From assembly GCA_015232855.1 (NCBI GenBank), contig JADFYW010000004.1, positions 21,488 to 85,487 on the forward strand: a DNA stretch of 64,000 nt, read 5' to 3'. This stretch comes from Fibrobacteria bacterium. GTDB taxonomy: Bacteria; Fibrobacterota; Fibrobacteria; UBA11236; JADFYW01. Of the stretch, positions 3,646-49,870 are shown piece after piece; within the stretch, counting starts at the first letter, position 1, and the number at the start of each line of letters is the position of its first letter. Position numbers and translations under genes: made by a program. The notes beneath the pieces were generated by a model. The model saw only the letters and a program-made list of their open reading frames with translations, had not been told where the DNA came from and searched no databases.

Positions 3646-4188
3646 TTATAGATATCCCAATGAAAGTTCACCAATAATTAGCAAAACGGAAAGCAACATA
3701 CCAATAAGAAAAATCCGGTAACTGTATCCTAAATAACGGTATTTTTTATGTTGGAGAACCTGTCCCAACTGATAAATATCATTGAGAATAGTTTTGAAAA
3801 TAGTCTCATCTTTTTTGATTAAGGTCTCCATATGTTCGTAGTATTCCTCAAAACTTTGCCTGGAATAAAAAGAAAAGAATAACGGATTATAATGGGGAGT
3901 GTTTGGTTGAATATGTTTCTTTTTTGGAATGGAGGGCATGACTGCCATTAAAGCGCAGGCAGCAGCTGCCAGGGTGAAAATACTGAGAACCAGTAATCCG
4001 GCAGACACACCTGCTGATTGCATACGGCTGATCGCAACAGTTAAAACCAGGAATGCTGCACCCATGAGAATATTTGCTTTTTGGTCCGCCATTATACTCA
4101 ACTGAACATGATGCTGGTGGGTAGAACGTAACATATGTACGACATTCAGGCGTCCATGGAAACTCACTGGTGGGATATCTTCATTCAT
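3646..4188 (-). CDS. Two-TM membrane protein of unknown function (possible SLATT/Pycsar-type 2TM effector-like N-domain)
   Basis: Conserved-looking ADQKANIL segment followed by two hydrophobic helices, plus a C-terminal TM; 180 aa; no recognisable enzymatic motif. Confidence 0.3.
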   Translation of the reverse strand: MNEDIPPVSFHGRLNVVHMLRSTHQHHVQLSIMADQKANILMGAAFLVLTVAISRMQSAGVSAGLLVLSIFTLAAAACALMAVMPSIPKKKHIQPNTPHYNPLFFSFYSRQSFEEYYEHMETLIKKDETIFKTILNDIYQLGQVLQHKKYRYLGYSYRIFLIGMLLSVLLIIGELSLGYL

Positions 4189-27007: not shown

Positions 27008-27019
27008 AGGAAAAGGTTA

Positions 27020-30613: not shown

Positions 30614-31003
30614 TCAGTGACGGCAATTACCCGAGCCCTGGCAAACCTGGTTTTGCTCAATTAATGGTAATTTGCCTTCTATAAAAGCATCAACAACGAT
30701 ACCAATTTCAGCACTGGTATTATTAAAGTAGACACCTATTCCAACCTCATTAAAAGCGGAAAGCGGGCGTAATCCTATTCCTCCTACAATAATGGCTGTA
30801 ACGTTTTCCTGTGCAAGTAAATTCACAGGAACAAGACATCCACCTTGTGCATGTTCTTTGTTTCCCAATATAGAGACATTCTTAATTTCTCCATCTGCAA
30901 CGTCAACCAGAGTAAATGAATCACAATGGCCAAAATGATTTGAACGTATTCCCTCAAGACCTCCGATTCCTTTAGACGGAACAGCTATTTTTGCTTTTTG
31001 CAT
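30614..31003 (-). CDS. NifX/NifB-C-terminal-like dinitrogenase FeMo-cofactor-family small protein (non-nif context)
   Basis: 129 aa; KIAVPS...GHCDSFTLVD...AIIVGGIG pattern of the PF02579-type fold; C-terminal CQGSGNCRH. Confidence 0.65.
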   Translation of the reverse strand: MQKAKIAVPSKGIGGLEGIRSNHFGHCDSFTLVDVADGEIKNVSILGNKEHAQGGCLVPVNLLAQENVTAIIVGGIGLRPLSAFNEVGIGVYFNNTSAEIGIVVDAFIEGKLPLIEQNQVCQGSGNCRH

Positions 31004-31243: not shown

Positions 31244-31361
31244 TATTGAGTGTATTTACCAATATATGCCAATACTGAACAGATACAAATTTAGTACATC
31301 TTATATTGATGTAAATGGTGCGTAATGAATCATGTTGCACCAATGTATTGCAATTCCGCAA

Positions 31362-32705
31362 TTATTGTAGCATTCCAAATTTTTTCATTTTACGCCAGAG
31401 CGTACTTTTATTTATCCCCAGGTATTCCGCAGTAAGTTTTTTACTGTTATTAAACTTCCTCAATGCTTTCCGGAGTGCCATTTCTTCTGCCTGGTGCAGG
31501 GGATGTTGAGGCTCTTGTGTGGCAAGGGGCTGGTCCGGTAAATTTTTAGTGAGTTCAGAAGGGAGATGACGGGGCTGAATTACAGAATTCCGGCACAGAA
31601 CGAACGCGTACTCAATGAAATTTTCAAGTTCACGCACGTTTCCGGGATAGTTATATCGCATAAGAAGATCCAGAGCGTCTTCAGAAACGTCCTCGATATC
31701 TTTACCTTTCTGAACATTAAACATTTGAATAAAATGGTCAATAAGGAGCGGAATGTCTTCGCGTCTTTTTGAAAGAGGGGGAAGGTAGAGGCGGATTACA
31801 TTGAGCCGGTAATAGAGGTCGTCTCTAAAGTCACCATTAGCGACCAGTTCTGAAAGCGGTCGGTTGGTTGCTGCAATAATCCGAACATTGGCTTTTACCG
31901 AACATTCTGAACCAAGGGGATCGTATTCTTTTTCTTGTAATACCCGAAGCAGTTTGGTTTGGAGAACCGTGGAAATATCTCCTATTTCATCCAGGAATAA
32001 TGTGCCTCCTTCAGCCAAAGCAAAGCGTCCGGGTTTATTTTTCTTAGCATCAGTAAAAGCGCCCTGTACATAGCCAAAAAGTTCAGACTCCAAAAGTGTA
32101 TCTGGTAAGGCCGTACAATTAAGGGCAATGTATTTACCTTTACGACCACTCAGGTTGTGGATTGCTTTCGCAAAGAGCTCTTTACCAGAGCCACTGGGAC
32201 CTTCAATGAGAACTGTACTGTTACTTTTTGCAAGATCGGGTAATATATCGATAATCTTATGGATCTCATGATTTTTGGAAATGATGTCTTCAAAAGAGTA
32301 TTTGTTTTTAATCTTTTTTCGTAGCAATTCAAGTTCGGAGAGATTACGGAAGGTTTCCACTCCACCTATTATTTTATTGGTTTGATTTCGAAGGGTAGAT
32401 GTGGAAATACTGATAGGGATTTTCTGACCGCTATTGTCCAGAATAGTTACTCTTCGATTAACTATGGACTCACCACTTTGCAGGGTTTGTTGAAGGGAAC
32501 ACCCCTTTTTACAAATATTAGCTCTGAAAACATCAGAACATTTTTTGGTTAACGCTTCTGTTTTAGACACCCCGGTGATTTGCTCCGCAGCTCGGTTAAA
32601 GAAGGTGATGTTGTAGTTGAGATCTATGGTAAAAACACCATCAGCAATAGAATCAAGAATGGTGTCTCTGGCTTCTTCGGGTGTGGGATTCTGAGTATCT
32701 TTCAT
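31362..32705 (-). CDS. Sigma-54-dependent transcriptional activator with Cys-containing PAS sensor (paralog 2)
   Basis: GPSGSGKE, ESELFGYVQGAFTDA, LFLDEIGD, C-terminal Fis HTH (KKLTAEYLGINKSTLWRKMKKFG); PAS with KKCSDVFRANICKKGC. Confidence 0.9.
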   Translation of the reverse strand: MKDTQNPTPEEARDTILDSIADGVFTIDLNYNITFFNRAAEQITGVSKTEALTKKCSDVFRANICKKGCSLQQTLQSGESIVNRRVTILDNSGQKIPISISTSTLRNQTNKIIGGVETFRNLSELELLRKKIKNKYSFEDIISKNHEIHKIIDILPDLAKSNSTVLIEGPSGSGKELFAKAIHNLSGRKGKYIALNCTALPDTLLESELFGYVQGAFTDAKKNKPGRFALAEGGTLFLDEIGDISTVLQTKLLRVLQEKEYDPLGSECSVKANVRIIAATNRPLSELVANGDFRDDLYYRLNVIRLYLPPLSKRREDIPLLIDHFIQMFNVQKGKDIEDVSEDALDLLMRYNYPGNVRELENFIEYAFVLCRNSVIQPRHLPSELTKNLPDQPLATQEPQHPLHQAEEMALRKALRKFNNSKKLTAEYLGINKSTLWRKMKKFGMLQ

Positions 32706-34300: not shown

Positions 34301-34658
34301 TGATAACTATTCTCTTCTATTAATAAAATACGTAACCATATTTAAAACGCAAAATCTATGCCAATTAGGGTGATGGCCGAAAAGTTGGAACGGTAAAAGT
34401 TGGAACGCTTTTTGCAACATATATAGTAGAGCCTGAAACAGATTAAAAATGTTGCAAATATGCAATTGTATGTTGCAAAAGAGAGGTGGAAATAGGATAT
34501 GATGCACGTTAAGAAATTTTTTTATTTATCTGCAATTTTTGTTATAGTGGGCGTAGTCTTTCTTCAAGTCTTCTTTATTTTGCCTGGGGTTAGTTGGAAC
34601 GTCCGCACCACAGGTGTAGTGGCAATTTCAATTTTAATGTATTTGTCCTGCGCTCTGT

Positions 34659-36094: not shown

Positions 36095-36110
36095 TGGCAC
36101 ATAATTTGCA
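36095..36110 (+). promoter_or_regulatory. Consensus sigma-54 promoter (TGGCAC-N5-TTGCA) for the downstream NifX-like gene
   Basis: Exact TGGCACataatTTGCA at 36095-36110; the NifX-like ATG is at 36124, so a very short or absent leader. Confidence 0.6.
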
Positions 36111-36123
36111 ATAACTATGAGGT

Positions 36124-36582
36124 ATGGAGCACGATATAAAAATAGCAATTCCATTAACAGGTGAGCGTGTTGCTCATCGACTTGATTGCGCAGAGTCCAT
36201 TTTATGGATTACTTTTCGGGATGGACTTATTGTATATAAGAAAAAAAGCAAATATCCTTTTGAACAATGCAGGTTTTCTATCCAGCATTTTCTTGATTAT
36301 GGTGTGAGGGCACTCATTTGTGGAGCGTTAGAAAAACATATGGTCTATAAACTATCTGTCCATGGGATTACTGTATTCCAGTGGGTTACTGCAGATGCTG
36401 ATGATGCTGTTGTGGCTTTCCAGAAAGGGGAACTCTCACCATTTATGATAATTGAACCTGGAGGTCGAAAACGGGGAAGCTGGAGCGGAAAGAATAATCG
36501 GGACTATGATGTTCAAGATACAACAGCAATATACCGCAGTCAAGGTAGGGGACGAAGAAAAGGACGGCGAGGTAATGAGTAA
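36124..36582 (+). CDS. NifX/NifB-C-terminal-like FeMo-cofactor-family small protein with Arg/Gly-rich tail
   Basis: MEHDIKIAIPLTGERVAHRLDCAES...ALICGALE pattern; 152 aa. Confidence 0.6.
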   Translation: MEHDIKIAIPLTGERVAHRLDCAESILWITFRDGLIVYKKKSKYPFEQCRFSIQHFLDYGVRALICGALEKHMVYKLSVHGITVFQWVTADADDAVVAFQKGELSPFMIIEPGGRKRGSWSGKNNRDYDVQDTTAIYRSQGRGRRKGRRGNE

Positions 36583-37179: not shown

Positions 37180-40100
37180 TTATGCTCTATCCTGTTTCAC
37201 CGATATCCCGTGTTTCTTTAAAATATGGTAAAAAGATGTCCGGTTCACTTTAGCGTGCTCTGCGCATAATGGGATATTATTGTTATAGCGTTTCAGGAGC
37301 TTAATCAGGTAATCTTTTTTCAATGATTCCAGGTAGCGATTTAAGCTGAGTTCTTCCGCTGAGGCTGGTTCTGCACAGGAGGTGTGGCATATAACTTTAA
37401 CAGGGAGGTCCACGGTAGTTGGCTCATTTTCGGTACAAAGAGAAAATACCTGATAAAGGGTTTGTTTTAATTCTTTTACATTTCCCGGCCATGAGTAATT
37501 TATCAGAGTCTTATATAAGTCATTATTTCCTTTTTTGATTTTTTTGTTATAGACCGTGTTATACTCAAGCCGGAAAAAATCAGTAAGATCAGGAATGTCT
37601 TCTTTTCGATCACAGAGACGGGGAAGGGTTAATCGTCTGGTGGCAATGCTGCAAAACAACTCTTCACTAAAATAATTATCCAATACCATATCCTCCAGAT
37701 TTCTAATGGATGAGGATATAATGCGTACATCAATATTTTGTTCTACGATAGAGCCGGTACGCTGTATTTTTTTCTTTTGCATACAATTAAGCACTCTTGC
37801 CTGGAGTTCATAATTAAGGTGATCTATTCCCTTGATATAGATGCTACCGGTATGGGCCAGCTCAAACAATCCTTTTTTTATATCATAGCTCCCATCAGGG
37901 AGTTTTCGTTCATAACCGAATAGTTCGTTTTCGAGAAGATTATCGGGAAGTGAAATACAGTTAATTGTCAAATATGGTGCATTACGACGTTTGCCCATAA
38001 AATGGAGCGTGTGGGCAAAAAGTTCTTTGCCTGTTCCCGCATCTCCATGAATATGAATATTATCGTCCTTTCTGGAGAATGTTTCCATTTGTTCTCTCAG
38101 TTCAATCATCAACTGACTCTTGCCCACGATGGTTACATGATTACCCGGCTCATGTACAGCACTACTTACCAATTGTTCACCAAAACATTCCTGCAATATG
38201 CTGCGCAATAAAGAAGTATCCAAAGGCTTTTTTAAGAAATATTGAAATCCGGCTTCTTTTGCGTTTTCTAATATACCATCCTCAAGTAACAGCCCTGTTA
38301 ATAATACTGCCTTTGATGGAGATTGAATTTTATTTAGGGCCAGCATTAATTCATTTCCATTCATCTGTTCCATATTATAATCGATAATAACCAGACGATA
38401 GGGATGTTCCGGCAGATTATCAAGCATATGCTCACCGCCAAAAAAGATGTCAGCTTTAAGTCCGATATCTTCTAAATATTCACCGATAAGTTTGGCCAGG
38501 GTACGATCGTCATCAACTACCGCAATAGAGGCGGGAATGGGTTCTTCTTCATTGACCGGTTTTGCCTGGATGGATGGTTTACTGGTACCGGTATCACTTT
38601 CTACAACCAATGCCATCTGGTTACCGATTTCCGTTAAGAGCTTTTCTGATTTTACAGGCTTGGTTAAGAAGGGGACTCCAAATTTCATTACTTCAAGTGC
38701 ATCTTGAGAAGGAGCATAGCCACTAATGAGTATTGTTTTAACATCATCGTTGATTTCCCGGAACTGAAAGAAACAATCCCGGCCGCCCATCTCCGGCATT
38801 ATCATATCAAGAACGACCACGCCTATCTGTTGGTAGTTATCTTTATAATAAGACATAGCGTCCTGGGAATTACTAAAGAGCTTATATTTATATCCGCTAT
38901 CCTCCATGGTACTATTGTACATTTTGAGCAATAATTCATCGTCATCAATTATGATAACCTCTTTATCTGCCTGAACGCCTGGTTTGATAGTAATGGTTTG
39001 ATGCTTATCTTGCTTTACTACCTCACATTCATGATAAGGCAAAAATATGTGGACCGAAGTACCATGGTTCACTTCACTTTCTATTTCAATTTTCCCTTTG
39101 TGGCTTTTGATACAACCATAAGAACTGGCCAGACCAAAACCGGTACCCTGTTCATTTTTTGTAGAGAAGAAGGGTTCAAAAATACGCTTCTTATCCTCTT
39201 CCTTAATTCCGTTGCCGGTATCTTTAACGGTTAGTTTGATATACTTACCCGCACCGAGATTGTCATCGGTGAGCCAGGTAAGGGATGTTTCTATACTCAA
39301 AGTGCCACCCTGGCTCATCGCGTGCCGTGAATTAGCCACCAGGTTGAGAATGACATTCTGTATCTGGGCCTGGTCGCATTTTAAAGTGGCTTTTTCTTTG
39401 GTGAAATGTTTAACTACAGTGATATTTTTTTCAAGGGTATGAGTAAGTAGGGCGAGGGTTTCTTCCAGAAGTTCATGGATATCTGTTTCTACAAATTTAT
39501 ACACACTCTTCCTGGCAAATGCCATTAATTTTTTAACCAGGTCGCCACCGCGTTCACAAGCCATGGTTACTATTTCCATACTTTCTTTTACTTTTTCCAG
39601 GTTGTAAGGATCACGCTCTACCTTTTCTGCAGACCCGAGTATAGCACCCAGCACATTATTGAAGTCATGGGCAATACCGCCCGCCAGGGTGCCTATTGAT
39701 TTCATCTTTTCCAGTTCAAATGCTCGCTTTTCAAAGGCTTTACGTTCAGTGATGTCAGTGAAATTTTCAATAATGCCTATAAGGTTATTTTGATGGTCTT
39801 TAAATGGAATACCCTTTAAAATGCATGTTAATTTACGGCCGTTACGAAGGCTCAGGTCGACTTCCTGATTTATCTTTTCATTACCGTTTAAAATCTGGGT
39901 GAGTGGACATTCTGATTTATTACAGAACGGTCCTTGCCAGATATCGTAACAGTTCGATCCTAAAACGTCTTCCTGTTTAAGGTCAAACAGAGAACAAAAG
40001 GTGTGATTTACCCGGAGTATCTTGAATGATTTACTGATAACACAAGAAGGTACTGCAAGATTAAACAGTTGGTGTAATTCAGATTGTGTTTGTTTAAGTG

Positions 40101-40482
40101 AGCTACTTAGTTGTTTCTGGTGGGTGATATCTATCCCGGTCAACAAGTATGTATCTGATATTTCACCGGTACCAGTACCATGGGTAAGTTTCCATTTACG
40201 CCAGTTGACGTTATGTTCCTTATCAGAAAGGGACGACTCAAATTCGGAACTGAAACCGTGTTGCTTCAAAGACGATATTCGTTTGGTAAAACTGCTCTGA
40301 TTTTCTTCAGGAAAAAGTTTGAAGACATTTTGCCTTTTACTGATTGGGGATGTGATTTCGAAGTAGTCTAAAAAGGCCTGGTTACTAAATTGGATTTGTC
40401 CGTCGTTGAAAAAACGGCAGATAGCTGTATCTACGACATCTAAAATTTCTTTATCATTTCTCATACTATGATTAAGAAGCAA
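37180..40482 (-). CDS. Hybrid sensor: PAS - PAS(Cys) - HisKA - HATPase - REC - REC - degenerate sigma-54-type AAA+ - Fis HTH
   Basis: H-box LAGGIAHDFNNVLGAILG; HATPase (DTGNGI, GTGFGL); two receivers (IIIDDDELL, AVVDDDRTL); AAA+ Walker A GDAGTGKE, with ELFGYERKLPDGSY where GAFTGA would be; C-terminal HTH AEHAKVNRTSFYHILKKHG; PAS with SNCYDIWQGPFCNKSEC. Confidence 0.8.
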   Translation of the reverse strand: MLLNHSMRNDKEILDVVDTAICRFFNDGQIQFSNQAFLDYFEITSPISKRQNVFKLFPEENQSSFTKRISSLKQHGFSSEFESSLSDKEHNVNWRKWKLTHGTGTGEISDTYLLTGIDITHQKQLSSSLKQTQSELHQLFNLAVPSCVISKSFKILRVNHTFCSLFDLKQEDVLGSNCYDIWQGPFCNKSECPLTQILNGNEKINQEVDLSLRNGRKLTCILKGIPFKDHQNNLIGIIENFTDITERKAFEKRAFELEKMKSIGTLAGGIAHDFNNVLGAILGSAEKVERDPYNLEKVKESMEIVTMACERGGDLVKKLMAFARKSVYKFVETDIHELLEETLALLTHTLEKNITVVKHFTKEKATLKCDQAQIQNVILNLVANSRHAMSQGGTLSIETSLTWLTDDNLGAGKYIKLTVKDTGNGIKEEDKKRIFEPFFSTKNEQGTGFGLASSYGCIKSHKGKIEIESEVNHGTSVHIFLPYHECEVVKQDKHQTITIKPGVQADKEVIIIDDDELLLKMYNSTMEDSGYKYKLFSNSQDAMSYYKDNYQQIGVVVLDMIMPEMGGRDCFFQFREINDDVKTILISGYAPSQDALEVMKFGVPFLTKPVKSEKLLTEIGNQMALVVESDTGTSKPSIQAKPVNEEEPIPASIAVVDDDRTLAKLIGEYLEDIGLKADIFFGGEHMLDNLPEHPYRLVIIDYNMEQMNGNELMLALNKIQSPSKAVLLTGLLLEDGILENAKEAGFQYFLKKPLDTSLLRSILQECFGEQLVSSAVHEPGNHVTIVGKSQLMIELREQMETFSRKDDNIHIHGDAGTGKELFAHTLHFMGKRRNAPYLTINCISLPDNLLENELFGYERKLPDGSYDIKKGLFELAHTGSIYIKGIDHLNYELQARVLNCMQKKKIQRTGSIVEQNIDVRIISSSIRNLEDMVLDNYFSEELFCSIATRRLTLPRLCDRKEDIPDLTDFFRLEYNTVYNKKIKKGNNDLYKTLINYSWPGNVKELKQTLYQVFSLCTENEPTTVDLPVKVICHTSCAEPASAEELSLNRYLESLKKDYLIKLLKRYNNNIPLCAEHAKVNRTSFYHILKKHGISVKQDRA

Positions 40483-40630
40483 TAGTTATGCCAGTGCTTA
40501 AATTATTGAAAAAAGATGAGTTTGCAACAGAAAATTGCATTCGTGCAATAGTTAGTGTTGTAAAAATGAAACCAAATGGTTGCGTTTAAACAAACATAGT
40601 GTACTTTCAAATAAGTCTTTTCAGGTTGTT

Positions 40631-40990: not shown

Positions 40991-41902
40991 TTAAACCGTA
41001 CTATCAAGAAACAGCTCAACCTCTTCAATGTGCTCGCCTTTAAACAATGCGGTTGAGCGAATTTTTTCCATGTAATAGTCGAGCTGTTTCAGATTCCAGG
41101 TGTCTGGTGCATTAATCACAATTCCGGCCCAGTATTTCTGGCCTTTACGCTGGAGTTTTATAGAAGAGATCATGGCTTCCGGCATTTCGTCTTCAATAAG
41201 AACCTGTAGTTTATGTGCAAAATCAGGTTCCGGTTCTTTATCCAGAATGATATTAACGGGTTCTTTCCATTGGTGATAGGCGTCCCTGATAATAATAATC
41301 CCTACAATGGCTGCTGCCAGAGGGTCGAGGATCTGCCAGGCACCACCGAATTGTGATAATAGAATCCCAATAGAAACGCCACAAGAAGAGAGCATATCGG
41401 CCTTATTCTGGTATGCATTCGCTTTCATACCACCACTTTTAAGTTCTCTCCCTGCGCACAGACTGTATTTAAACATAATGTAATTCAGAAGAATAGAGAG
41501 GATCGCAACCGGGAAGGTGATAAAAGAAGGCGGATAAAACCCGCCCCTGAGTAATTGGGTGATATTGGTAACAAAAATAAAGATACCCAGCGCAAAAAGG
41601 ATGCTGTAAACGAGCAGAGAGGTAATAAATTCGGCTTTTCGATAGCCGAAAGGATGAGAAAAATCAGGGTCTTTTTTAGAAGCATGTATACTGTACAGTA
41701 TAATAAGGCCACCGACCACGCAGGAAAATGATTGCAGGCCATCTGCCATGAGACCATTACTATTAAACCACATACCCATGAGGAATTTCAAAACAGCGAG
41801 AAATAGATTTGCTGCTATACTCCAAATCATGATGCGGTTGCCGCAGCTTGGGCAACGGTGGGTACTTGCACAAACACCCGGGTTAAATAGTGTTTTAAAC
41901 AT
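40991..41902 (-). CDS. Cation diffusion facilitator (CDF) transporter, MamB-like (N-terminal CxxC motif)
   Basis: Six TM helices, HPFGYRKAEF TM2 signature, C-terminal cytoplasmic domain; N-terminal CASTHRCPSCGN as seen in MamB; last gene of a seven-gene operon. Confidence 0.6.
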   Translation of the reverse strand: MFKTLFNPGVCASTHRCPSCGNRIMIWSIAANLFLAVLKFLMGMWFNSNGLMADGLQSFSCVVGGLIILYSIHASKKDPDFSHPFGYRKAEFITSLLVYSILFALGIFIFVTNITQLLRGGFYPPSFITFPVAILSILLNYIMFKYSLCAGRELKSGGMKANAYQNKADMLSSCGVSIGILLSQFGGAWQILDPLAAAIVGIIIIRDAYHQWKEPVNIILDKEPEPDFAHKLQVLIEDEMPEAMISSIKLQRKGQKYWAGIVINAPDTWNLKQLDYYMEKIRSTALFKGEHIEEVELFLDSTV

Positions 41903-42773
41903 GACGCCCCTTAACGTTTACATAGCAGTTTGATTGGCCAGCAATGGCTCCCTGAATATTTGCAATAATTGAACGTATAATTGTTTTTGATTGCTTGACT
42001 GAGGTGGTTTCAGAGAGAGAAATAGAACTGTAAATTTCCATACTATTTTTTTGCTTAACAATTTTTAAAGCAATAAGGCGTATATCTTTGTGTGCCCTAA
42101 GAATATGAGGTTTAAGTAGAGAGCGGGAGACCGTAGGCAGGCTGGTGTCCATTAAACTCTGATATGCTTTACTCAAGCTGTAAATACTGTAGATGAGAAC
42201 ACCTAACGCCATAGCCGCGGCAGCCAGGTAATCGGTAATAAATGGACCGCTTCTGGAAATGATAATGATAAAGATGGAAGCCGCAGTGCATAAGAAATCA
42301 AAGCCGGTGATAAAGATAAGCTTTTTGTAATGTTTACTCGTATGCAGGCTCGTATGGGACTGTAAATAGTTTAGGAGAATAAAATTAATGGCCATAAAAA
42401 TAACTGCTATCCAGGCAGAAGCCATGGCAGGAGGGTATATCATATGAAAAAACATGACATGGGCAAAGGCATACAACAATGCACAGGTGGCGAGAACAAT
42501 AATAAGAGAAAGTCCCGCCAGTAGGAAAAAGGAAAGTTTATCATAGGAAAATATGGCCTTTTTATGGCTTTTCTTTTTGTGTTTTGCCTGGAACTCAATA
42601 ATGCAAAGCAGTGCGGTAAATGCACCAAATAAAGAGGGCAGTCCGGCCACCAGTAACGATTTTGCATTATAGATAGCGCCAAAAGCTACCTTAGAAATAA
42701 ACAGGCATACATAAATAATAAGCGCCTGGTAGAGAATGGCAGCAGCAGTGTTTTGGTTTGACCTTTTTGCCAT
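41895..42773 (-). CDS. Divergent CDF-family transporter paralog (MamM-like?), metal-site residues degenerate
   Basis: CDF-like TM topology plus C-terminal cytoplasmic domain, but the TM2 motif is FSYDKLSF instead of PFGY-type; 8-bp overlap with the downstream CDF gene. Confidence 0.45.
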   Translation of the reverse strand: MAKRSNQNTAAAILYQALIIYVCLFISKVAFGAIYNAKSLLVAGLPSLFGAFTALLCIIEFQAKHKKKSHKKAIFSYDKLSFFLLAGLSLIIVLATCALLYAFAHVMFFHMIYPPAMASAWIAVIFMAINFILLNYLQSHTSLHTSKHYKKLIFITGFDFLCTAASIFIIIISRSGPFITDYLAAAAMALGVLIYSIYSLSKAYQSLMDTSLPTVSRSLLKPHILRAHKDIRLIALKIVKQKNSMEIYSSISLSETTSVKQSKTIIRSIIANIQGAIAGQSNCYVNVKGRHV

Positions 42774-42774
42774 T

Positions 42775-43506
42775 TTACATACTCACGCCTGCTGGCGTTC
42801 CCATAATTGCATGACAATTAGAACAGACTCCCCGGTATTCATGTATCATTTGGGCGGTAAAAGAAATGGCAATATCAGGATGAATCTGGTGGCAACTGGC
42901 GCATACCCCCCGGTATTCGTGGGGGAGTATGGCATCCCTGAAGATAGGCGGGGCCAGGTTATTTAAATTATACGATTGTACACCGGGATGTGTGGATGCA
43001 TTCCAATGCCGGTTATTTTCGTTTGGGATAGTTGAGGGTGGGGTATAGGCTACTGCAGCACCTTGAGGAGTGGCCCCCGGGAAACAATTAGCCACACTGG
43101 GACAAGTTGCGCAACCGGGAGGAATGGTAGCCGCAACGGTTTGCCCTTGAGGAGTGGCCCCTGGGAAGCAATTAGCCACACTGGGACAAGTAACACATCC
43201 GGGAGGAATGGTAGCCGCAACGGCTTGACCTTGAGGAGTAGCTCCCGGGAAGCAATTAGCCACACTGGGACAAGTAACGCAACCGGGAGGAATAGTAGCA
43301 GCGACGGTTCTTCCCTGAAGGGGAGCTGTAATACCCGTGTTTGCTTCTACCCGTTCTTCGATAGTAAGGAATATGGCAAAAACAATAACCAGAAGTGCAA
43401 TCCCCCCGCCTATAAGTATTGGTTTTTGGTTTGTTTTGGAAATCTTAGGAAATAATTTTTGAGGAGCCTCACCTTCAAGCATATCGTCGAGTTCATTGTC
43501 TGTCAT
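42775..43506 (-). CDS. Membrane-anchored protein with three 28-aa Cys-rich tandem repeats and two magnetochrome-type c-heme motifs (MamT/MamP-like)
   Basis: N-terminal TM; 3x TVAATIPPGCVTCPSVANCFPGATPQGQ; C-terminal LPHEYRGVCASCH and MIHEYRGVCSNCH both fit the magnetochrome HxxRGxCxxCH consensus. Confidence 0.6.
   Translation of the reverse strand: MTDNELDDMLEGEAPQKLFPKISKTNQKPILIGGGIALLVIVFAIFLTIEERVEANTGITAPLQGRTVAATIPPGCVTCPSVANCFPGATPQGQAVAATIPPGCVTCPSVANCFPGATPQGQTVAATIPPGCATCPSVANCFPGATPQGAAVAYTPPSTIPNENNRHWNASTHPGVQSYNLNNLAPPIFRDAILPHEYRGVCASCHQIHPDIAISFTAQMIHEYRGVCSNCHAIMGTPAGVSM
43085..43340. repeat. Three near-identical 84-bp in-frame tandem repeats inside the magnetochrome gene
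   Basis: DNA-level repeat GCAACCGGGAGGAATGGTAGCCGCAACGG... encoding the 28-aa Cys-rich unit three times; produces spurious antisense ORFs. Confidence 0.85.
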
Positions 43507-43525
43507 TATTTCTCCTTAACGGTTT

Positions 43526-43972
43526 TTAGAATGCGCCCGGCCTCACACCGGGGACCAGGGCAGCGATAACCTGTTGTCCCTGTCTGTTTATGGTTAATCT
43601 GATTGTTTTGTTATTTGCGGTATTACTGAGATTCTTGCCGAACTGCTTTTGGCTGGTAATGCTTTTACCGTTCCATTTGCTGATGATATCCCCGTTTTTG
43701 ATGTTTGCCGCAGCAGCGGGAGATCCGATAAAGACCCTGGTCACCAGTAATCCCCGGGAAGCTGTGATGTTATATTGTTTTTTAATGGTGCGGTTAAGTT
43801 CAACAGTTTCTATTCCCAGCCATTTTCCCTGCATGCCGGGTTCGCTGTTTGTACGGTGCATCCTGGAAGCCATAAGCAAAAAGGTAAGGGATAGTAAACC
43901 TGCAATAAAGAAAAACATATTACGCTTCATCGTATCATACCGTTCTAATTGTGCTTTACGTGTTTTGTTCAT
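43526..43972 (-). CDS. Single-TM PDZ-domain protein (MamP/MamE N-terminus-like)
   Basis: N-terminal TM (FFFIAGLLSLTFLLMA), then a PDZ core GLLVTRVFIGSPAAAANIKNGDIISKWNG...IRLTINRQGQ. Confidence 0.6.
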   Translation of the reverse strand: MNKTRKAQLERYDTMKRNMFFFIAGLLSLTFLLMASRMHRTNSEPGMQGKWLGIETVELNRTIKKQYNITASRGLLVTRVFIGSPAAAANIKNGDIISKWNGKSITSQKQFGKNLSNTANNKTIRLTINRQGQQVIAALVPGVRPGAF

Positions 43973-44859
43973 GTTTCGTCAGTTTCTGGTTGTGGCAGAA
44001 CTCTGGTCTGATTTTTTTCAGGACCCACCCGCATGGACACGTTTTCACATTTCAAACATTTTAAGCAGCGTACACAGGCAGAATGATTGGGATCGTGGCT
44101 TACATTAAGCTCAACCAAACAGTCACCGACACATTTATTGCAATCTTTACAATGGCCGGTGTCTACTTGCAGCCGTACAAGACTGAAGCGATTGAAAAAC
44201 CCCATTATGGCGCCAAGAGGGCAAATAACCCTGCAGAATGGTCTTTTGGCAATAACAAATAGGCAGAGGAAGCTAAGAAGGATTACCAGTTTAATAAGAA
44301 ACATGGTCCCAATAGCGCTGGCAGAAACTGCAGGGATATTATCAACAGGCATCATAGGATTCCAGATAATCCAGGGGAGACCTGCCTGAAGAGTACCCAT
44401 AGGACAGAGTTTTGAAAACCAGGTTTCCTGCGTAAAAAAGGGTATAAGGAAAATCAGGAATAGCAAGACAAAGTATCGGAAAGACGTCAACTGATTGGGT
44501 ATGGTGATTTTAAAACTTTTGATTTTGTACATCAGGTCTTGTAAAAGACCAAAAGGACATAACCAGCCACAAGCCATGGCCCCCACTGTCATAGATATGG
44601 CAAGTAGATATCCGATAACTGTAAAAGGAATTTTATGGATGGTAACAAAATGCTGGATGGCCCCGATAGGACAGGTGAAAAATGAAGTAGGGCAGCTGTG
44701 GCAATTCAAAAAAGGTACGCAAACACTTTTAAGGGAACCCTGATAAATCTTTTTGGTTTTGAGGAAGCCCATATAGGCATTTGGAATAATAAACGAAAGC
44801 CATTGGGAAATAACGCGTGCCCGTTCTATCATGTTCAACTGTTTCAGGTCTTTCTCCAT
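43969..44859 (-). CDS. NapH/MauN-like membrane polyferredoxin (4 TM + 2x[4Fe-4S])
   Basis: Conserved CHSCPTSFFTCPIG and CGWLCPFGLLQD (NapH-type motifs), C-terminal CKDCNKCVGDC and CVRCLKCLKC clusters. Confidence 0.6.
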   Translation of the reverse strand: MEKDLKQLNMIERARVISQWLSFIIPNAYMGFLKTKKIYQGSLKSVCVPFLNCHSCPTSFFTCPIGAIQHFVTIHKIPFTVIGYLLAISMTVGAMACGWLCPFGLLQDLMYKIKSFKITIPNQLTSFRYFVLLFLIFLIPFFTQETWFSKLCPMGTLQAGLPWIIWNPMMPVDNIPAVSASAIGTMFLIKLVILLSFLCLFVIAKRPFCRVICPLGAIMGFFNRFSLVRLQVDTGHCKDCNKCVGDCLVELNVSHDPNHSACVRCLKCLKCENVSMRVGPEKNQTRVLPQPETDET

Positions 44860-45000
44860 GAGATTATTCCAGACCTATACAGGCAAGACACATTGATGCA
44901 CCGTCATCCTGGATTTCCAGAACATCGTTGTTTAAATCACCCAACAGAAGAAATAGGAAGGCAAAGAGGTAGAGGATGGTGATAAATTTCCAGTTTGAAT

Positions 45001-45333
45001 TCATAGACTTTCTATCCATTTCATAAAGTTTTTACAACGTGGGCAGCTTGGGAAGCCCGTCTGACCACAGGATTCACAAATAAATGCCCCCTGATATCCG
45101 TTCCAGTACATGCTCACATTACATTGAGTACAGCGGGGAAGAGCTTTGGTGCCACATTGGGGACAGACGCATTTGACCTTGTGGTTGATTATTTTCATCT
45201 CAATATGACCTTGTACCAACGACCGGGAAGCAAGGGAATCATATTTTGCCAGGGAGTAGGTTATATACACCGCAATAAAGGCAGTATAGATTACACCGGC
45301 AAGAATCAGAATAAACAGAGAACGGTTATTCAT
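45001..45333 (-). CDS. Small membrane protein with four CxxC pairs (zinc-ribbon-like)
   Basis: N-terminal TM; CVCPQCG, CTQC, CESCGQ, CPRC. Confidence 0.45.
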   Translation of the reverse strand: MNNRSLFILILAGVIYTAFIAVYITYSLAKYDSLASRSLVQGHIEMKIINHKVKCVCPQCGTKALPRCTQCNVSMYWNGYQGAFICESCGQTGFPSCPRCKNFMKWIESL

Positions 45334-45334
45334 C

Positions 45335-46048
45335 TTAGAATACTTTCATGCCAGAAGTAATGGTTTGTACGTTCACCGGCACTGCAACCGATACTACCTG
45401 ATGCAGGCTGTTACTGCAGTGGGGACAGGTCATACCTGAGCCCGGAGGGATTTTTGAACTGGCAATTTTGTATCCGCAGTTGTAGCAGATTGAAAATGTC
45501 CCCTGTACGATTTCCGCCACATTGGCCTGGGCGTCAAAAGATGAACAGGATATGAGTTTTTTGCTGCCGGTGATGCCGTAATGCTGGGGTACGGTCATTT
45601 TATCAACCTTTACCATGGCTTCGGGGAACGACTGTATGGTTTGCAGCACCGTTCCTTTGATATCGGTATACATCTCAACATTGGAGGACTTGAAAATACG
45701 TGCCGGTTCAAAACCAAAATTATTTCCGCAGACCGCGTCTATATTTTTTTTAACCAGCATTTCACTAACCCGTAAACCCACCGCATGGGGCTGGTCCATG
45801 AATTTATTGGCAATGATTTTATAGGTGAGATTTGAACGGTCACAAACAAGGAAATAGGGTGCTCTTCCGAAAAGATAAGCTACCGGACTATTGATATCTG
45901 CTCCGGTGGAGGCTACCGCTACAAACCGGGCGTTATTTCCAGATAAAACGACCGGATGCCTTTTTTCATAGATAAAGCGAAACAGCAAAGCCGTTACCGC
46001 TAAAAGCAGTGTAATAACAAATATATTTTGTCCCGGTAGTTTCATCAT
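45335..46048 (-). CDS. Membrane-anchored NifX/NifB-like FeMo-cofactor-family domain protein with C-terminal zinc ribbon
   Basis: N-terminal TM; VAVASTGADINSPVAYLFGRAPYFLVCD...IDAVCGNNFG (PF02579-like); C-terminal CYNCGYKI...CPHCSN; first gene of the operon. Confidence 0.5.
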   Translation of the reverse strand: MMKLPGQNIFVITLLLAVTALLFRFIYEKRHPVVLSGNNARFVAVASTGADINSPVAYLFGRAPYFLVCDRSNLTYKIIANKFMDQPHAVGLRVSEMLVKKNIDAVCGNNFGFEPARIFKSSNVEMYTDIKGTVLQTIQSFPEAMVKVDKMTVPQHYGITGSKKLISCSSFDAQANVAEIVQGTFSICYNCGYKIASSKIPPGSGMTCPHCSNSLHQVVSVAVPVNVQTITSGMKVF

Positions 46049-46608
46049 GCCATGCTAAAGCAAAGAACGTACCAGATTTTAAATAGCTGTGATTATTATA
46101 GTAATAAGGGAAATAATTAATAAGATTGCAATAATGCAATTTAAGTGCGCGGAAAAAGATTGCTAAAATGCAATTTATTTGTTTTAAGTTTGCGATTGTC
46201 TTGTGAAAAGCACATTCAAACGGTTTCTTGTCTGGTAATTGAGAAAGTTGAAAGCCCTCTGTTTGGTTAATGAGAATAATGTGTTGTGATTGCGACTATA
46301 TTGTATGGGAAGTATCGTAGTTACATGGATAGTAATAGAAAACAATTGTGTGACAAGGTTATGTACCAAAATAGCCTTGGTTTTATCTCTCTAAGAAAAA
46401 GAAAATGTTAAAAAATGTCATTTTTATATTTTTAACTGGAACCCCCAATTCCCCAATCCAGCCCCCAATTTACTGGTGGATATCGCCAGGATATTACCCT
46501 CAATTGCCTGTGAAGATGCAGGTTAGAATTGTCAATTAGTGTCGTAAAACAAAAAAAAATATAGATTTTGCTTGTATTCATTACGATTAGTTGGGATAAT
46601 ACATTTGA

Positions 46609-46682
46609 TGACTACTGACTACTGACTACTGACTACTGACTACTGACTACTGACTACTGACTACTGACTACTGATTACTGAA
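46609..46682. repeat. Heptanucleotide tandem repeat (ACTGACT)x~10.5, same CAGTNNT family in reverse orientation
   Basis: gactactgactactgac... continuous for 74 bp, ending 11 bp before the ATG of the histidine kinase gene at 46693. Confidence 0.9.
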
Positions 46683-49256: not shown

Positions 49257-49493
49257 ATGGTTTTTATAAACATTTCAGAGGCAAAAGCCAGTTTGTCGCG
49301 GCTGATAGAAATGGTAAGGAAGGGAGAAGATGTAATTATTGGCAAAGCGGGTAAACCGGTTGTAAAAATCATTCCATTTGACCAGGATACCCGGCAAAGA
49401 ACGGGCGGCCAATGGAAAGGTAAAATAAAAATTTCCGCTGACTTTGATGTATTGCCTGATGATATTATGAAAACATTTACCTTAGGTTCCTGA
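49257..49493 (+). CDS. Phd/YefM-family type II antitoxin
   Basis: 78 aa; ISEAKASLSRLIEMVRKGEDVIIGKAGKPVVKIIP is typical of the Phd/YefM N-terminus; stop overlaps the toxin start. Confidence 0.75.
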   Translation: MVFINISEAKASLSRLIEMVRKGEDVIIGKAGKPVVKIIPFDQDTRQRTGGQWKGKIKISADFDVLPDDIMKTFTLGS

Positions 49494-49870
49494 TGAACCT
49501 TCTTCTGGATACCCATATATTGCTTTGGTGGCTTGATAACCCATCCCTTATAAAAAGAGACGCTGCAAATTTAATAACGGATGGAAAAAACGGTGTTTAT
49601 ATAAGTTCAGCTACTATTTGGGAAATTGTATTAAAAAAATCATTAGGCAAATTATGTATACCAGATAATTTAGAAGAGGTCATTACGAGTAACCGGTTTT
49701 TATACTTACCTATAGCTCCACATCATGCATTCAGGCTTGAGTGTCTTCCACACATCCACCGGGACCCTTTTGACCGTATCCTTATCGCTCAAGCACTTTG
49801 CGAAAAATATACCCTGGTAACAAGGGATAAGATAATCCCCCAATATGATCTTGATGTTATTGAAGGTTAG
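49493..49870 (+). CDS. vapC: PIN-domain ribonuclease toxin
   Basis: LLDTHILLW (Asp5), conserved E/D residues (TIWEIV, DPFDRILIAQA, TRD); 125 aa. Confidence 0.75.
   Translation: MNLLLDTHILLWWLDNPSLIKRDAANLITDGKNGVYISSATIWEIVLKKSLGKLCIPDNLEEVITSNRFLYLPIAPHHAFRLECLPHIHRDPFDRILIAQALCEKYTLVTRDKIIPQYDLDVIEG

What the first reader, a model, noticed from the sequence alone, without database searches (positions are those of the whole stretch)
40991..46048. Seven-gene operon resembling a partial magnetosome-type biomineralisation module (two CDFs, PDZ, magnetochrome, NapH-like, NifX-like)
On the minus strand, tightly packed or overlapping genes encode: a membrane NifX/NifB-like + zinc-ribbon protein; a small 4x CxxC membrane protein; a NapH-type polyferredoxin; a TM-PDZ protein; a TM protein with two perfect HxxRGxCxxCH motifs (LPHEYRGVCASCH, MIHEYRGVCSNCH; the magnetochrome consensus of MamP/T/E/X) preceded by three Cys-rich 28-aa repeats; and two adjacent CDF transporters, the first with the N-terminal CxxC typical of MamB and the second with a degenerate metal site (MamM-like?). 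Magnetochrome domains are, to my knowledge, essentially restricted to magnetotactic bacteria, and MamB/MamM are the only universally essential CDF pair there. No mamA/K/Q/I/O/E is visible in the window, so this is either one edge of a magnetosome gene cluster, a deltaproteobacterial/Nitrospirae-style mad-type accessory operon, or an unrecognised iron-handling system built from magnetosome parts. The NapH-like ferredoxin and membrane NifX-like components are not canonical mam genes.
Basis: partly seen in the sequence, partly recalled or inferred. Interest (0 to 1): 0.85.

Follow-up and report, generated by a model that had tools for sequence, protein, structure and literature searches.

The report
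Magnetosome-type iron redox and transport operon
This is a real, tightly packed eight-gene operon for moving and oxidising iron at a membrane; it recurs inside the magnetosome gene clusters of several little-known bacterial phyla but stands alone here, in a Fibrobacterota genome already published as a putative magnetotactic bacterium.

Summary
The genes at 40991-46048 (minus strand) exist as described, and a conserved eighth gene encodes a 46-51 aa peptide. The window matches MAG nGR_bin1 (Fibrobacterota, Lin et al. 2020), published as carrying a magnetosome gene cluster (MGC).

The whole cassette is perfectly syntenic in 11 Omnitrophota, 2 Planctomycetota and 1 Hydrogenedentota species genomes. 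In seven loci it directly follows MamM/MamB/MamA/MamQ-like genes. In four it is detached, as it is here: the 64 kb window holds no core mam gene.

- The two CDFs are a divergent paralogous pair, not canonical MamB/MamM. One keeps the N-terminal CxxC but has an altered transport site (Q57/C61, Q165/D169). The other has no site ligands.
- The NapH-like protein is 48% identical to the Desulfamplus magnetosome protein HMP4, which I take to be Mad6.
- The NifX-like, PDZ and magnetochrome proteins together carry the domains of FmpB of Desulfovibrio magneticus RS-1, split into three anchored polypeptides.
- The copy here appears to have a sigma-54 promoter with two upstream palindromes, which the other loci lack.

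Best reading: an accessory iron-export and redox module of deep-branching MGCs. It is a new variant of a known kind. Function is inferred, not shown.

The parts
45335..46048 (-). G1: N-terminal membrane anchor (residues 9-27), a NifX/NifB-type (Nitro_FeMo-Co) domain, and a C-terminal Cys4 (C188xxC191...C208PxC211).
   Evidence: Pfam PF02579, E=1.7e-12. PDB sequence matches to TM1290 (1rdu), MTH1175 (1eo1) and ORP (2wfb). 44-51% identical in 13 syntenic loci. The domain hits FmpB-like C-terminal domains at 24-28% identity, E 1e-9 to 1e-12, but not the window's own small NifX-like proteins.
45001..45333 (-). G2: single-TM protein with four CxxC motifs, forming two CPxCG...CxxC knuckles that bind Zn or Fe. 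The positive-inside rule suggests these face the cytoplasm.
   Evidence: 44-55% identical in syntenic loci, with all eight Cys conserved. Flank charges.
44864..45019 (-). G2b: conserved 46-51 aa single-TM peptide with an acidic tail ending in a CxxC motif (...GASMCLACIGLE).
   Evidence: Present at the same position in all cassette loci that cover this position, with a nearly invariant C-terminus. Topology N-in/C-out: 2.5 K/R on the N flank against 0.3 on the C flank. No Pfam or NCBIfam hit.
43969..44859 (-). G3: NapH-type membrane polyferredoxin resembling Mad6. It has two CxxxCP motifs and two [4Fe-4S]-type Cys clusters (C237-C247, C262-C271).
   Evidence: Fer4_5, E=6.8e-16; TIGR02163 NapH/MauN 51.5 bits against a cutoff of 213. 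55-67% identical to cassette orthologues. 48% identical to P0176 = AEX00098.1 'HMP4' of Desulfamplus magnetovallimortis. Conserved Cys listed.
43526..43972 (-). G4: membrane-anchored PDZ protein, N-in with the PDZ domain on the outer or lumenal side.
   Evidence: PDZ_2, E=2.9e-11. NCBIfam MamP model matched over its PDZ part (positions 110-196) and MamE over positions 436-536. 35-51% identical in syntenic loci. Topology.
42775..43506 (-). G5: membrane-anchored protein with three Cys-rich 28-aa repeats (PPGCxTCPSVANCFP) followed by two magnetochrome CxxCH haem motifs (C202, C228).
   Evidence: PF18509, 51 bits, two stretches. The only PDB sequence hit at E<0.01 is MamP 4jj0, with both motifs aligned, E=7.8e-4. 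The family has 42 clusters, all carrying PF18509. The repeat motif is conserved with variable copy number.
43060..43309 (.). 84-nt tandem repeat, 3.0 copies, 89% matches, encoding the three Cys-rich repeats of G5.
41895..42773 (-). G6: degenerate CDF paralogue with six TM segments and no transport-site ligands (TM2 reads LLVAGLPSLFG). It is the probable non-transporting partner of G7.
   Evidence: Cation_efflux 23.3 bits, below the cutoff. Best NCBIfam model is MamM at 52.3 bits against a cutoff of 350. Alignment. Forms its own clade. Only 29 representatives at E<=1e-10 among 1.84 billion. A natural G6-G7 fusion exists, P0196.
40991..41902 (-). G7: CDF transporter with an N-terminal C17xxC20 and an altered site A (Q57/C61 in TM2, Q165/D169 in TM5).
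   Evidence: TIGR01297 164.7 bits. MamM 155.6 and MamB 154.2 bits against cutoffs of 350; FieF only 65.7. Alignment. The cassette-specific clade is nearest to Planctomycetota and Hydrogenedentota sequences.
46059..46074 (-). Sigma-54-type -24/-12 element TGGTACGTTCTTTGCT, ending 10 nt before the G1 start codon.
   Evidence: one mismatch to TGGCAC-N5-TTGCW. The motif alone is not enriched in the window; the support comes from its position and the adjacent palindromes.
46125..46174 (.). Two copies of the palindrome ATTGCA-N4-TGCAAT (46125-46140 and 46159-46174), about 84 and 118 nt upstream of the predicted transcription start. Probably enhancer-binding-protein sites.
   Evidence: 5 matches in the window against 0.44 expected; 0 of 100 shuffles reach 5.
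40478..40549 (-). The same palindrome (40534-40549) plus a sigma-54-like element TGGCATAACTATTGCT (40493-40478) in front of the downstream regulator gene.
37180..40482 (-). Adjacent gene for a PAS / histidine kinase / two receiver / sigma-54 AAA+ activator protein. It is the candidate regulator of the operon. Its real start is probably the ATG at 40464.
   Evidence: Pfam. Promoter geometry. The regulatory link is inferred.

Best explanation
The operon is a detached copy of a conserved eight-gene accessory module of deep-branching magnetosome gene clusters. It corresponds to the mad6 - fmpA/fmpB - mamB segment of the Desulfovibrio magneticus RS-1 magnetosome island.

Proposed working (inferred, not shown):
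1. G7, a MamB-like CDF, pairs with its ligand-less paralogue G6. The heterodimer moves Fe(II) from the cytoplasm across the membrane, into a magnetosome lumen or the periplasm.
2. On the far side, the membrane-anchored di-haem magnetochrome protein G5 works with the PDZ protein G4. Together they have the MamP domain set and oxidise part of the Fe(II).
3. The NifX-type domain of G1, homologous to the FmpB C-terminal domain, holds an iron or iron-sulfur cluster intermediate.
4. G3, a Mad6/NapH-type polyferredoxin, couples this redox chemistry to the quinone pool or to cytoplasmic reductant. It may act as a metal reductase feeding the exporter, as its relative CcoG does for copper.
5. G2 and the tiny G2b are Cys-based accessory subunits.
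6. In this genome the module has apparently been rewired to a sigma-54 promoter, probably controlled by the adjacent PAS / kinase / sigma-54 activator.
For: Shown here:
- Domain content.
- Perfect synteny of all eight genes in 14 species-representative genomes of three other phyla, plus metagenome contigs.
- The cassette lies directly downstream of MamM-like (246 bits), MamB-like (238 bits), TPR (MamA-like), LemA (MamQ-like), PDZ-CitMHS and TauE genes in 6 Omnitrophota loci. A Planctomycetota locus shows the PDZ-CitMHS and TauE genes before the contig ends.
- Desulfobacterota MGC loci encode one protein with the architecture MCR x2 - PDZ - Nitro_FeMo-Co.
- G1's domain resembles that protein's C-terminal domain, not the genome's own NifX-like proteins.
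- Fusions link the parts: CDF-NifX and G6-G7.
- Positive-inside analysis puts G1 (weakly), G2b, G4 and G5 on the haem side.
- The G5 and G6 families are very rare and were found only with the cassette.
- The sigma-54 element lies next to palindromes enriched 5 against 0.44 expected.

From the literature:
- mad6 and fmpB mutants of RS-1 make fewer magnetite particles. FmpB has magnetochrome, PDZ and NifX/NifB domains (PMC4287615).
- The source MAG nGR_bin1 is listed among MGC-containing genomes (PMC7602337).
- CcoG, a polyferredoxin with two [4Fe-4S] clusters (that it belongs to the same NapH/Fer4_5-type family as G3 is my own knowledge, not tested here), is a cupric reductase that supplies a metal exporter (PMC7558416).
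Against: - No core mam gene lies within 64 kb, and I could not read the rest of the genome. Association with magnetosomes in this organism therefore rests on published statements only.
- No protein of the cassette has been studied experimentally.
- The CDFs miss the MamB/MamM equivalog cutoffs by a wide margin, and G7's transport site is unusual, so the transported metal is not established.
- The topology of G1 and G2 rests on modest charge biases.
- The sigma-54 match has one mismatch, and such matches are not enriched in the window as a whole.
- In vitro, CcoG reduces Cu(II) but not Fe(III).
Confidence: 0.65

Rival explanations
1. The operon is a stand-alone envelope iron (or other metal) export and oxidation system that works without magnetosomes. 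Possible roles are iron detoxification, periplasmic mineral or iron storage, or redox balancing. Magnetosome clusters would have recruited it, rather than the reverse.
For: - It is detached from core mam genes here and in four other loci. For example, L008 is flanked by GH10, Mla and Pst transporter genes.
- In L003 it is followed by PhoU, Pho4, Fur, ZnuA, a TonB receptor and ExbBD.
- It contains no membrane-remodelling or chain-forming genes.
- It has its own regulation: sigma-54 here, and an HTH_17 gene elsewhere.
Against: - Every taxonomically named G5 homologue comes from a MAG of a phylum reported to include putative magnetotactic bacteria.
- 7 of the 11 loci with readable upstream flanks carry core mam-like genes next to the cassette.
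- The nearest characterised relatives, Mad6 and FmpB, have magnetosome phenotypes.
- Only 14 of 185,579 species genomes carry the cassette.
Confidence: 0.2
2. The operon is one edge of the main magnetosome gene cluster of this genome, with mamA/K/Q/I/E/O lying just outside the window.
For: The contig is 85,622 bp, so about 21.6 kb is unseen. In Omnitrophota the cassette is the downstream part of the MGC.
Against: The operon is 41 kb from one window end and 18 kb from the other. Both flanks are filled with regulators, a TonB-type receptor, methyltransferases and Hdr/Dsr-like genes. MGCs are normally contiguous.
Confidence: 0.05
3. The operon is a binning or assembly artefact. The contig, or the operon within it, would belong to an Omnitrophota- or Planctomycetota-like magnetotactic bacterium and not to the Fibrobacterota genome.
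For: - The closest relatives of all eight proteins are in other phyla.
- Operon GC3 is 0.443 against 0.374 +/- 0.047 for the other genes.
Against: - Window GC of about 0.40 matches the MAG's 40.7%.
- Identities to other phyla are only 23-67%, so this is not a recent copy.
- The operon shares a specific palindrome and sigma-54 promoter style with genes up to 15 kb away on the same contig. That argues against a chimeric join.
- A weak T9SS sorting-domain hit at 12418-13749 fits the FCB group.
Confidence: 0.07

Closest known systems
mad6 - fmpA - fmpB - mamB segment of the Desulfovibrio magneticus RS-1 magnetosome island (Rahn-Lee et al. 2015, PMC4287615)
   Same: The domain inventory matches: a NapH-type polyferredoxin (Mad6), PDZ, magnetochrome, a NifX/NifB domain (FmpB), and a MamB-type CDF with an N-terminal CxxC. 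G3 is 48% identical to the NapH-type magnetosome protein HMP4 of Desulfamplus. G1's domain hits FmpB-like C-terminal domains.
   Different: - FmpB is one polypeptide; here its three domains are on three separately anchored proteins, G1, G4 and G5 (one search compared).
- Gene order differs.
- The cassette adds G2, G2b, Cys-rich repeats in G5, and a ligand-less second CDF.
- Identities outside G3 are low, 24-34%.
The identical cassette inside Omnitrophota, Planctomycetota and Hydrogenedentota magnetosome gene clusters (MAGs of Lin et al. 2020 and others)
   Same: All eight genes are present in the same order. Identities to the window proteins: G3 55-66%, G1 44-51%, G2 44-55%, G4 35-51%, G5 31-50%, G7 34-43%, G6 23-31%.
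   Different: - Those copies are usually preceded by an HTH_17 (MerR-like) gene and followed by a PAS gene, and are often joined to MamM/B/A/Q-like genes.
- The window copy has none of these. It carries a sigma-54-type promoter with palindromes that is absent from the other loci.
MamP (PDB 4jj0), MamB and MamM of Alphaproteobacteria
   Same: - G4 plus G5 have MamP's parts: TM anchor, PDZ and two magnetochromes. MamP is the only PDB sequence match to G5 at E<0.01.
- G7 has the N-terminal CxxC (its likeness to MamB's CxxC is from my own knowledge of MamB; the RS-1 mamB C9Y mutant is) and scores higher on the MamB and MamM models than on any other equivalog.
   Different: - The MamP parts are split over two genes.
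- Scores are far below the equivalog cutoffs: G5 on MamP 30 against 300, G7 on MamB 154 against 350, G6 on MamM 52 against 350.
- G7's site A is Q/C + Q/D instead of His/Asp-type ligands, and G6 has none.
- A separate, better-scoring MamM/MamB pair exists in the same Omnitrophota clusters.
NapH (quinol dehydrogenase subunit) and CcoG (cupric reductase of the ccoGHIS cluster)
   Same: G3 shares the membrane polyferredoxin fold family (Fer4_5), the CxxxCP motifs and two [4Fe-4S] motifs. Like ccoG, G3 sits beside a metal exporter gene and a very small membrane protein gene (the ccoGHIS parallel is my inference).
   Different: G3 is below the NapH cutoffs (51.5 against 213; 46.8 against 234). There is no NapG, NapC or NapA. 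CcoG is specific for Cu(II) in vitro.

Membership tests
Magnetochrome domain (Pfam PF18509) | Score above the Pfam gathering cutoff, with paired CxxCH haem motifs. | tested here: met
   G5 scores 51.0 bits against a cutoff of 30.4, in two stretches. Both motifs align to MamP 4jj0.
Magnetochrome domain (Arnoux et al. 2014 pattern) | Match to P-x(0,6)-[IVMLQA]-x(6)-[PTH]-x(0,2)-H-x(1,3)-[GN]-x(1,5)-CxxCH-x-[IVMLFY]. | tested here: met
   The first motif matches fully. The second fails only at the [PTH] position, reading MIH where homologues read MPH.
MamP (NCBIfam NF040965) | One polypeptide with TM, PDZ and two magnetochromes, and a score of at least 300 bits. | tested here: not met
   G5 scores 30.4 bits and G4 34.7 bits. 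The domains lie on two genes.
MamB (NCBIfam NF033616) | Equivalog score of at least 350 bits. | tested here: not met
   G7 scores 154.2 bits. Note that MamB/MamM-like proteins from Desulfamplus MGC loci also reach only 240-249 bits, so this cutoff is tuned to Proteobacteria.
MamB | Orthology with the MGC core CDF, judged by grouping with MamB-like sequences of deep-branching MGCs. | tested here: not met
   In an NJ tree without bootstrap support, G7 falls in a cassette-specific clade. That clade is separate from the Omnitrophota upstream MamB-like proteins and the Desulfobacterota clades. The upstream proteins score 238-246 bits against 139-176 for cassette CDFs.
MamB | An N-terminal CxxC motif and His/Asp-type transport site A. 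| tested here: inconclusive
   The CxxC is present and conserved (C17xxC20). Site A is Q57/C61 and Q165/D169; most homologues have His at the position aligned with Q165.
MamM (NCBIfam NF033615) | Equivalog score of at least 350 bits and an intact site A. | tested here: not met
   G6 scores 52.3 bits and has no site-A ligands. It forms its own clade.
CDF superfamily (TIGR01297 / PF01545) | Score above the family cutoff. | tested here: met
   G7 scores 164.7 bits against 82.35. G6 reaches only 23.3 bits against the Pfam cutoff of 26.6, but aligns full-length with six TM segments.
Mad6 | A NapH-type membrane polyferredoxin encoded within an MGC. No curated model is available. | tested here: inconclusive
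   G3 is 48% identical over 90% of its length to HMP4 of Desulfamplus magnetovallimortis, and its orthologues sit in MGCs. However, cassette G3 proteins (55-67% identity) form a group distinct from the Desulfobacterota group (41-50%). The wider family has 1137 members, including non-MTB lineages. That HMP4 equals Mad6 is my inference.
FmpB (DMR_41100) | Magnetochrome, PDZ and a C-terminal NifX/NifB domain in one protein. | tested here: not met
   The domain set is present but split over G5, G4 and G1. The single-chain architecture was confirmed in Desulfobacterota loci. G1 shows 24-28% identity to those domains.
NapH (TIGR02163 / NF007013) | Score above the cutoff, and a nap operon context (NapG, NapC, NapA). 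| tested here: not met
   Scores of 51.5 against 213 and 46.8 against 234. No nap genes are in the window.
Magnetosome gene cluster (core MGC) | Clustered mamA, B, M, K, P, Q, E, O and I. | tested here: not met
   None of MamA (TPR), MamQ (LemA), MamK (actin) or MamE/O (trypsin) is present in 64 kb.
Magnetosome gene cluster (core MGC) | Presence of a core MGC elsewhere in the same genome. | not testable with these tools
   The source genome was not returned by the genome scan or the exact look-ups. The only support is the literature.

The most novel reading that the evidence does not exclude
The cassette is an autonomous, horizontally mobile iron-export and iron-oxidation unit that can act without a magnetosome vesicle. 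For example, it could build or control periplasmic or membrane-associated iron minerals. In this Fibrobacterota genome it may supply the magnetochrome redox function that the related Elusimicrobiota-type MGCs lack. Its lumenal NifX-type domain would then act as a cluster or nucleus carrier for iron-oxide or iron-sulfide mineral formation.
Probability: 0.15. Interest if true: 0.75.

Novelty: new variant of a known kind. Interest (0 to 1): 0.5.

Why it matters
Redox control and iron delivery in deep-branching magnetotactic bacteria are known only from a few mutants in one Desulfovibrio strain. This analysis adds several testable points:
- The mad6/fmpB/CDF functions travel together as a fixed eight-gene unit across at least four phyla.
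- The unit contains a second, specialised CDF pair, one member without a transport site, in addition to MamB/MamM.
- The NifX-type domain is a recurrent magnetosome-side component.
- The unit can be detached from the core cluster and placed under different regulation.

These points give defined targets for heterologous expression and for complementing RS-1 mutants. The result also matters for calling magnetotactic bacteria from metagenomes. A contig carrying only this cassette looks like mamB, mamM, mamP and mad6, but it is not a core magnetosome cluster.

Tried and rejected
- **Exact look-ups of the source contig:** not on record. The genome-contig scan did not return the source genome either. 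I could not read the unseen 21.6 kb or the other contigs of the MAG.
- **AlphaFold2 of G5 with a 32-sequence alignment:** mean pLDDT 50.6 and pTM 0.23. This is uninformative, as expected for a haem-dependent fold, so no fold search was run.
- **Rfam scan of the window:** no match.
- **Sigma-70 promoter scan:** not above chance, 19 sites against 15.2 +/- 3.7 expected.
- **Sigma-54 motif counts in the whole window:** not enriched, 28 against 29 expected. Only its position and the palindromes give it weight.
- **Sigma-54 sites upstream of the cassette in 13 other loci:** none found. Sigma-54 control is not a conserved feature of the cassette.
- **Literature searches for a cassette-level description or a magnetosome NifX link:** only the RS-1 FmpB description turned up. 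The search covers open-access papers only.
- **G7/G6 as canonical MamB/MamM:** considered and rejected.
- **G3 as a true NapH:** considered and rejected.
- **The operon as an MGC edge:** considered and rejected on the flanking gene content.

Full report
**1. The observation**

They are packed with junctions of -19 to +19 nt. Pfam and NCBIfam confirm each domain call:

| Gene | Coordinates | Main features |
|---|---|---|
| G1 | 45335-46048 | Membrane anchor, Nitro_FeMo-Co (NifX/NifB-type) domain, Cys4 |
| G2 | 45001-45333 | One TM segment, four CxxC motifs |
| G3 | 43969-44859 | NapH-type polyferredoxin |
| G4 | 43526-43972 | Membrane-anchored PDZ |
| G5 | 42775-43506 | Membrane anchor, two magnetochrome motifs (PF18509, 51 bits against a cutoff of 30.4) |
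| G6 | 41895-42773 | Weak CDF, 23.3 bits, below the Pfam cutoff |
| G7 | 40991-41902 | Clear CDF with N-terminal C17xxC20 |

- The three 28-aa Cys repeats in G5 are an 84-nt tandem repeat of 3.0 copies at 89% identity.
- An eighth gene was missed, the 51-aa ORF at 44864-45019 (G2b). It is a single-TM peptide ending in ...GASMCLACIGLE. Its C-terminus is nearly invariant in every related locus that covers that position.
- Pfam scans of about 48 further ORFs found no MamA/K/Q/I/E/O-type gene anywhere in the 64 kb. tblastn with Omnitrophota MamA-like and MamQ-like proteins also found none.

**2. Source of the window**

G5, G7 and G3 are 100% identical to NCBI proteins of 'MAG: Fibrobacteria bacterium', locus tag HQK83, on an 85,622-bp contig. 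The only Fibrobacterota genome in Lin et al. 2020 (Microbiome 8:152) is nGR_bin1: order UBA11236, 5.38 Mb, 40.7% GC. It is one of 168 genomes that the authors list as containing a magnetosome gene cluster. Window GC is about 0.40.

A later preprint states that Fibrobacterota Mam proteins cluster with those of Elusimicrobiota and Riflebacteria. That implies a core MGC elsewhere in the MAG. I could not verify this, because the source genome was not retrievable.

**3. The operon is a conserved cassette**

A scan of 185,579 species-representative genomes with a G3 alignment, followed by tblastn with all eight window proteins, gave a clear result. The full set G1-G2-G2b-G3-G4-G5-G6-G7, in that order, occurs in:
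- 11 Omnitrophota MAGs (L007-L010, L012-L018);
- 2 Planctomycetota MAGs (L011, L057);
- 1 Hydrogenedentota MAG (L030).

It also occurs on metagenome contigs (L003-L006). A Hydrogenedentota protein, P0044, is the closest G7 relative at 46% identity.

The component families are rare:
- G5 has 42 clusters among 5.8 billion, all with PF18509. The taxonomically named ones are Omnitrophica MAGs, apart from the self-match to the source Fibrobacteria MAG.
- G6 has only 29 representatives at E<=1e-10 among 1.84 billion.

**4. Relation to magnetosome gene clusters**

In six Omnitrophota loci (L007, L010, L012, L014, L016, L018) the cassette directly follows a run of genes with this order: CDF, CDF, TPR, LemA, PDZ-CitMHS, TauE, a small PLDc_N protein, PDZ, HTH_17. 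In the Planctomycetota locus L011 only the PDZ-CitMHS, TauE and PDZ genes are visible before the contig ends. The two upstream CDFs score 246 bits on the MamM model and 238 bits on the MamB model. That equals the MamB/MamM-like proteins of Desulfamplus MGC loci (240-249 bits). This is therefore the core MGC, and the cassette is part of it.

In L008, L009, L017 and L057 the cassette has only the HTH_17 gene in front. L008 is preceded by a GH10 glycosidase, Mla genes and a phosphate ABC transporter. A detached cassette, as in the window, is thus a recurrent arrangement.

**5. The CDF pair**

| Protein | MamB model (bits) | MamM model (bits) |
|---|---|---|
| Cassette G7-type | 139-176 | 128-156 |
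| Cassette G6-type | 34-50 | 52-85 |

All scores are below the cutoff of 350.

- In an NJ tree without bootstrap support, both types form their own clades. These are separate from the upstream MamM-like and MamB-like clades and from generic CDFs. Window G7 groups with Planctomycetota and Hydrogenedentota sequences.
- The G7 family keeps the N-terminal CxxC, but its site A reads ADGxQSxxC in TM2 and ANxxHAGAD in TM5.
- In the window these positions are Q57, C61, Q165 and D169. The upstream MamB-like protein has H...D and E...D at the same positions.
- The G6 family has no site-A ligands but keeps six TM segments and a conserved GLMDASCDK motif.
- One metagenomic protein, P0196 (601 aa), is a G6-G7 fusion in gene order. 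This fits a heterodimer, although a frameshift artefact cannot be excluded.

**6. The redox proteins**

- **G3.** It is 55-67% identical to cassette orthologues and 48% identical to HMP4 (AEX00098.1) of Desulfamplus magnetovallimortis. That is the NapH-type gene of Desulfobacterota MGCs. In RS-1 the NapH-type gene mad6 gives fewer particles when mutated.
- **FmpB link.** tblastn hits of G1 in Desulfobacterota MGC loci led to proteins with the architecture TM - magnetochrome x2 - PDZ - Nitro_FeMo-Co. This is the architecture described for FmpB (DMR_41100) of RS-1, whose mutants also make fewer particles.
- **G1 domain.** It matches these FmpB-like C-terminal domains at E 1e-9 to 1e-12. It does not match the window's own small NifX-like proteins at 30614-31003 and 36124-36582.
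- **Conclusion.** G1, G4 and G5 together equal a split FmpB.
- **Topology.** Because haem attachment is periplasmic, the fusion places the NifX-type domain on the haem side. That agrees with the charge bias of G1's anchor, which is N-in/C-out.
- **Second fusion.** A CDF-Nitro_FeMo-Co protein follows the cassette in L012 and L013.
- **PDB.** The only PDB sequence match to G5 at E<0.01 is MamP, with both motifs aligned. G4 plus G5 also reproduce the MamP domain set.

**7. Regulation**

A sigma-54-type element, TGGTACGTTCTTTGCT (46074-46059), ends 10 nt before the G1 start codon. Two copies of the palindrome ATTGCA-N4-TGCAAT lie about 84 and 118 nt upstream of the predicted transcription start.

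The palindrome occurs five times in the window against 0.44 expected. One further copy sits in front of a sigma-54-like element of the adjacent regulator gene, 37180-40482, which encodes a PAS / kinase / two-receiver / sigma-54 activator protein.

The 13 homologous loci have no such promoter upstream of the cassette. They carry an HTH_17 gene there instead. I infer that this copy was rewired to sigma-54 control. This is inference only.

**8. Mechanism (inferred)**

1. The G6/G7 heterodimer exports Fe(II).
2. G5 and G4 oxidise part of that Fe(II) on the far side of the membrane, as MamP does.
3. G1 holds an iron or iron-sulfur cluster intermediate.
4. G3 links the chemistry to quinones or cytoplasmic reductant. 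It may reduce metal for export, by analogy with CcoG. CcoG, however, did not reduce Fe(III) in vitro.
5. G2 and G2b are Cys-based accessory subunits.

None of these steps has been tested for any cassette protein.

**9. Rivals**

- **Magnetosome-independent iron system.** This remains possible at about 0.2, because the cassette is detached in several genomes and I could not check whole genomes.
- **MGC edge.** Unlikely, given the flanking genes.
- **Chimeric or mis-binned contig.** The palindrome and promoter style shared with distant genes on the same contig argues against this, although GC3 is mildly raised.

**10. Novelty and score**

The source MAG and the Omnitrophota MGCs are published. 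Mad6 and FmpB are known. In the open-access literature I could search, I found no description of the following:
- this fixed eight-gene unit;
- its paralogous CDF pair;
- the tiny CxxC peptide;
- the split-FmpB arrangement.

I rate it a new variant of a known kind, with interest 0.5.

Noticed in passing
window 46609-46681: A perfect heptamer tandem repeat, TGACTAC x 10.4 at 98% matches. It lies between the operon's promoter region and the divergent hybrid histidine-kinase gene that starts at 46693.
   Followed up: no
window 46059-46048, 40478-40464, 36110-36124: Three of the best sigma-54-type -24/-12 matches end 10-13 nt before an ATG: G1, the 37180-40482 regulator, and the NifX-like gene at 36124. 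The predicted transcripts would therefore be leaderless or nearly so.
   Followed up: partly
window 31347-31362, 34451-34466, 40534-40549: Further copies of the palindrome ATTGCA-N4-TGCAAT lie next to sigma-54 activator genes and a small NifX-like gene. This suggests a local sigma-54 regulon that includes the operon.
   Followed up: partly
window 30614-31003 and 36124-36582: Two small soluble Nitro_FeMo-Co (NifX-like) proteins, each behind a sigma-54-like promoter (31090-31075 and 36095-36110). They are not similar to G1's domain by blastp.
   Followed up: partly
window 25655-30364 and 58808-61317: Two Hdr/Dsr-like membrane redox gene sets, with CCG and 4Fe-4S proteins and nitrate-reductase-gamma-like subunits. 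The first set also has a 626-aa protein with a C-terminal cytochrome c3 domain, which shows that the organism makes c-type cytochromes.
   Followed up: no
window 4513-6203: A gene pair for an MbnB/TglH/ChrH-type (DUF692) enzyme, E=1.7e-96, and a DUF2063 protein. This is the kind of pair that modifies small Cys-containing peptides.
   Followed up: no
window 3646-4188: A protein with a PycTM (Pycsar effector) domain, E=2.6e-21. No cyclase gene was recognised next to it.
   Followed up: no
window 49257-49870: A two-gene pair (78 aa and 125 aa) overlapping by one base. By eye it looks like an antitoxin / PIN-toxin module. It was not scanned.
   Followed up: no
L019 3334-11487 (MAG labelled 'Clostridia bacterium 1244-F3-H4-B3'): A related but different cluster: two MamB/M-like CDFs, a trypsin-PDZ (MamE-like) protease, an anchored NifX-Cys4 protein (32% identical to G1), zinc-ribbon proteins, HTH_17, a NapH-like protein (49% identical to G3) and a PDZ protein. 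No magnetochrome was detected. UbiA and polyprenyl synthase genes lie next to it.
   Followed up: partly
P0196 (601 aa, metagenomic representative): A single protein made of a G6-like half followed by a G7-like half. It is either a natural fusion of the cassette's two CDFs or a frameshift artefact.
   Followed up: partly
L012 14662-15795 and L013 5203-6294: Omnitrophota encode a fusion of a CDF membrane domain with a C-terminal Nitro_FeMo-Co domain, just downstream of the cassette and its PAS gene.
   Followed up: partly
L023 4619-6463: An FmpA-like three-PDZ protein of a Desulfobacteria MGC has a C-terminal stretch resembling G1's NifX-type domain (28% identity, E=1.6e-8). Pfam does not call this stretch.
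   Followed up: no
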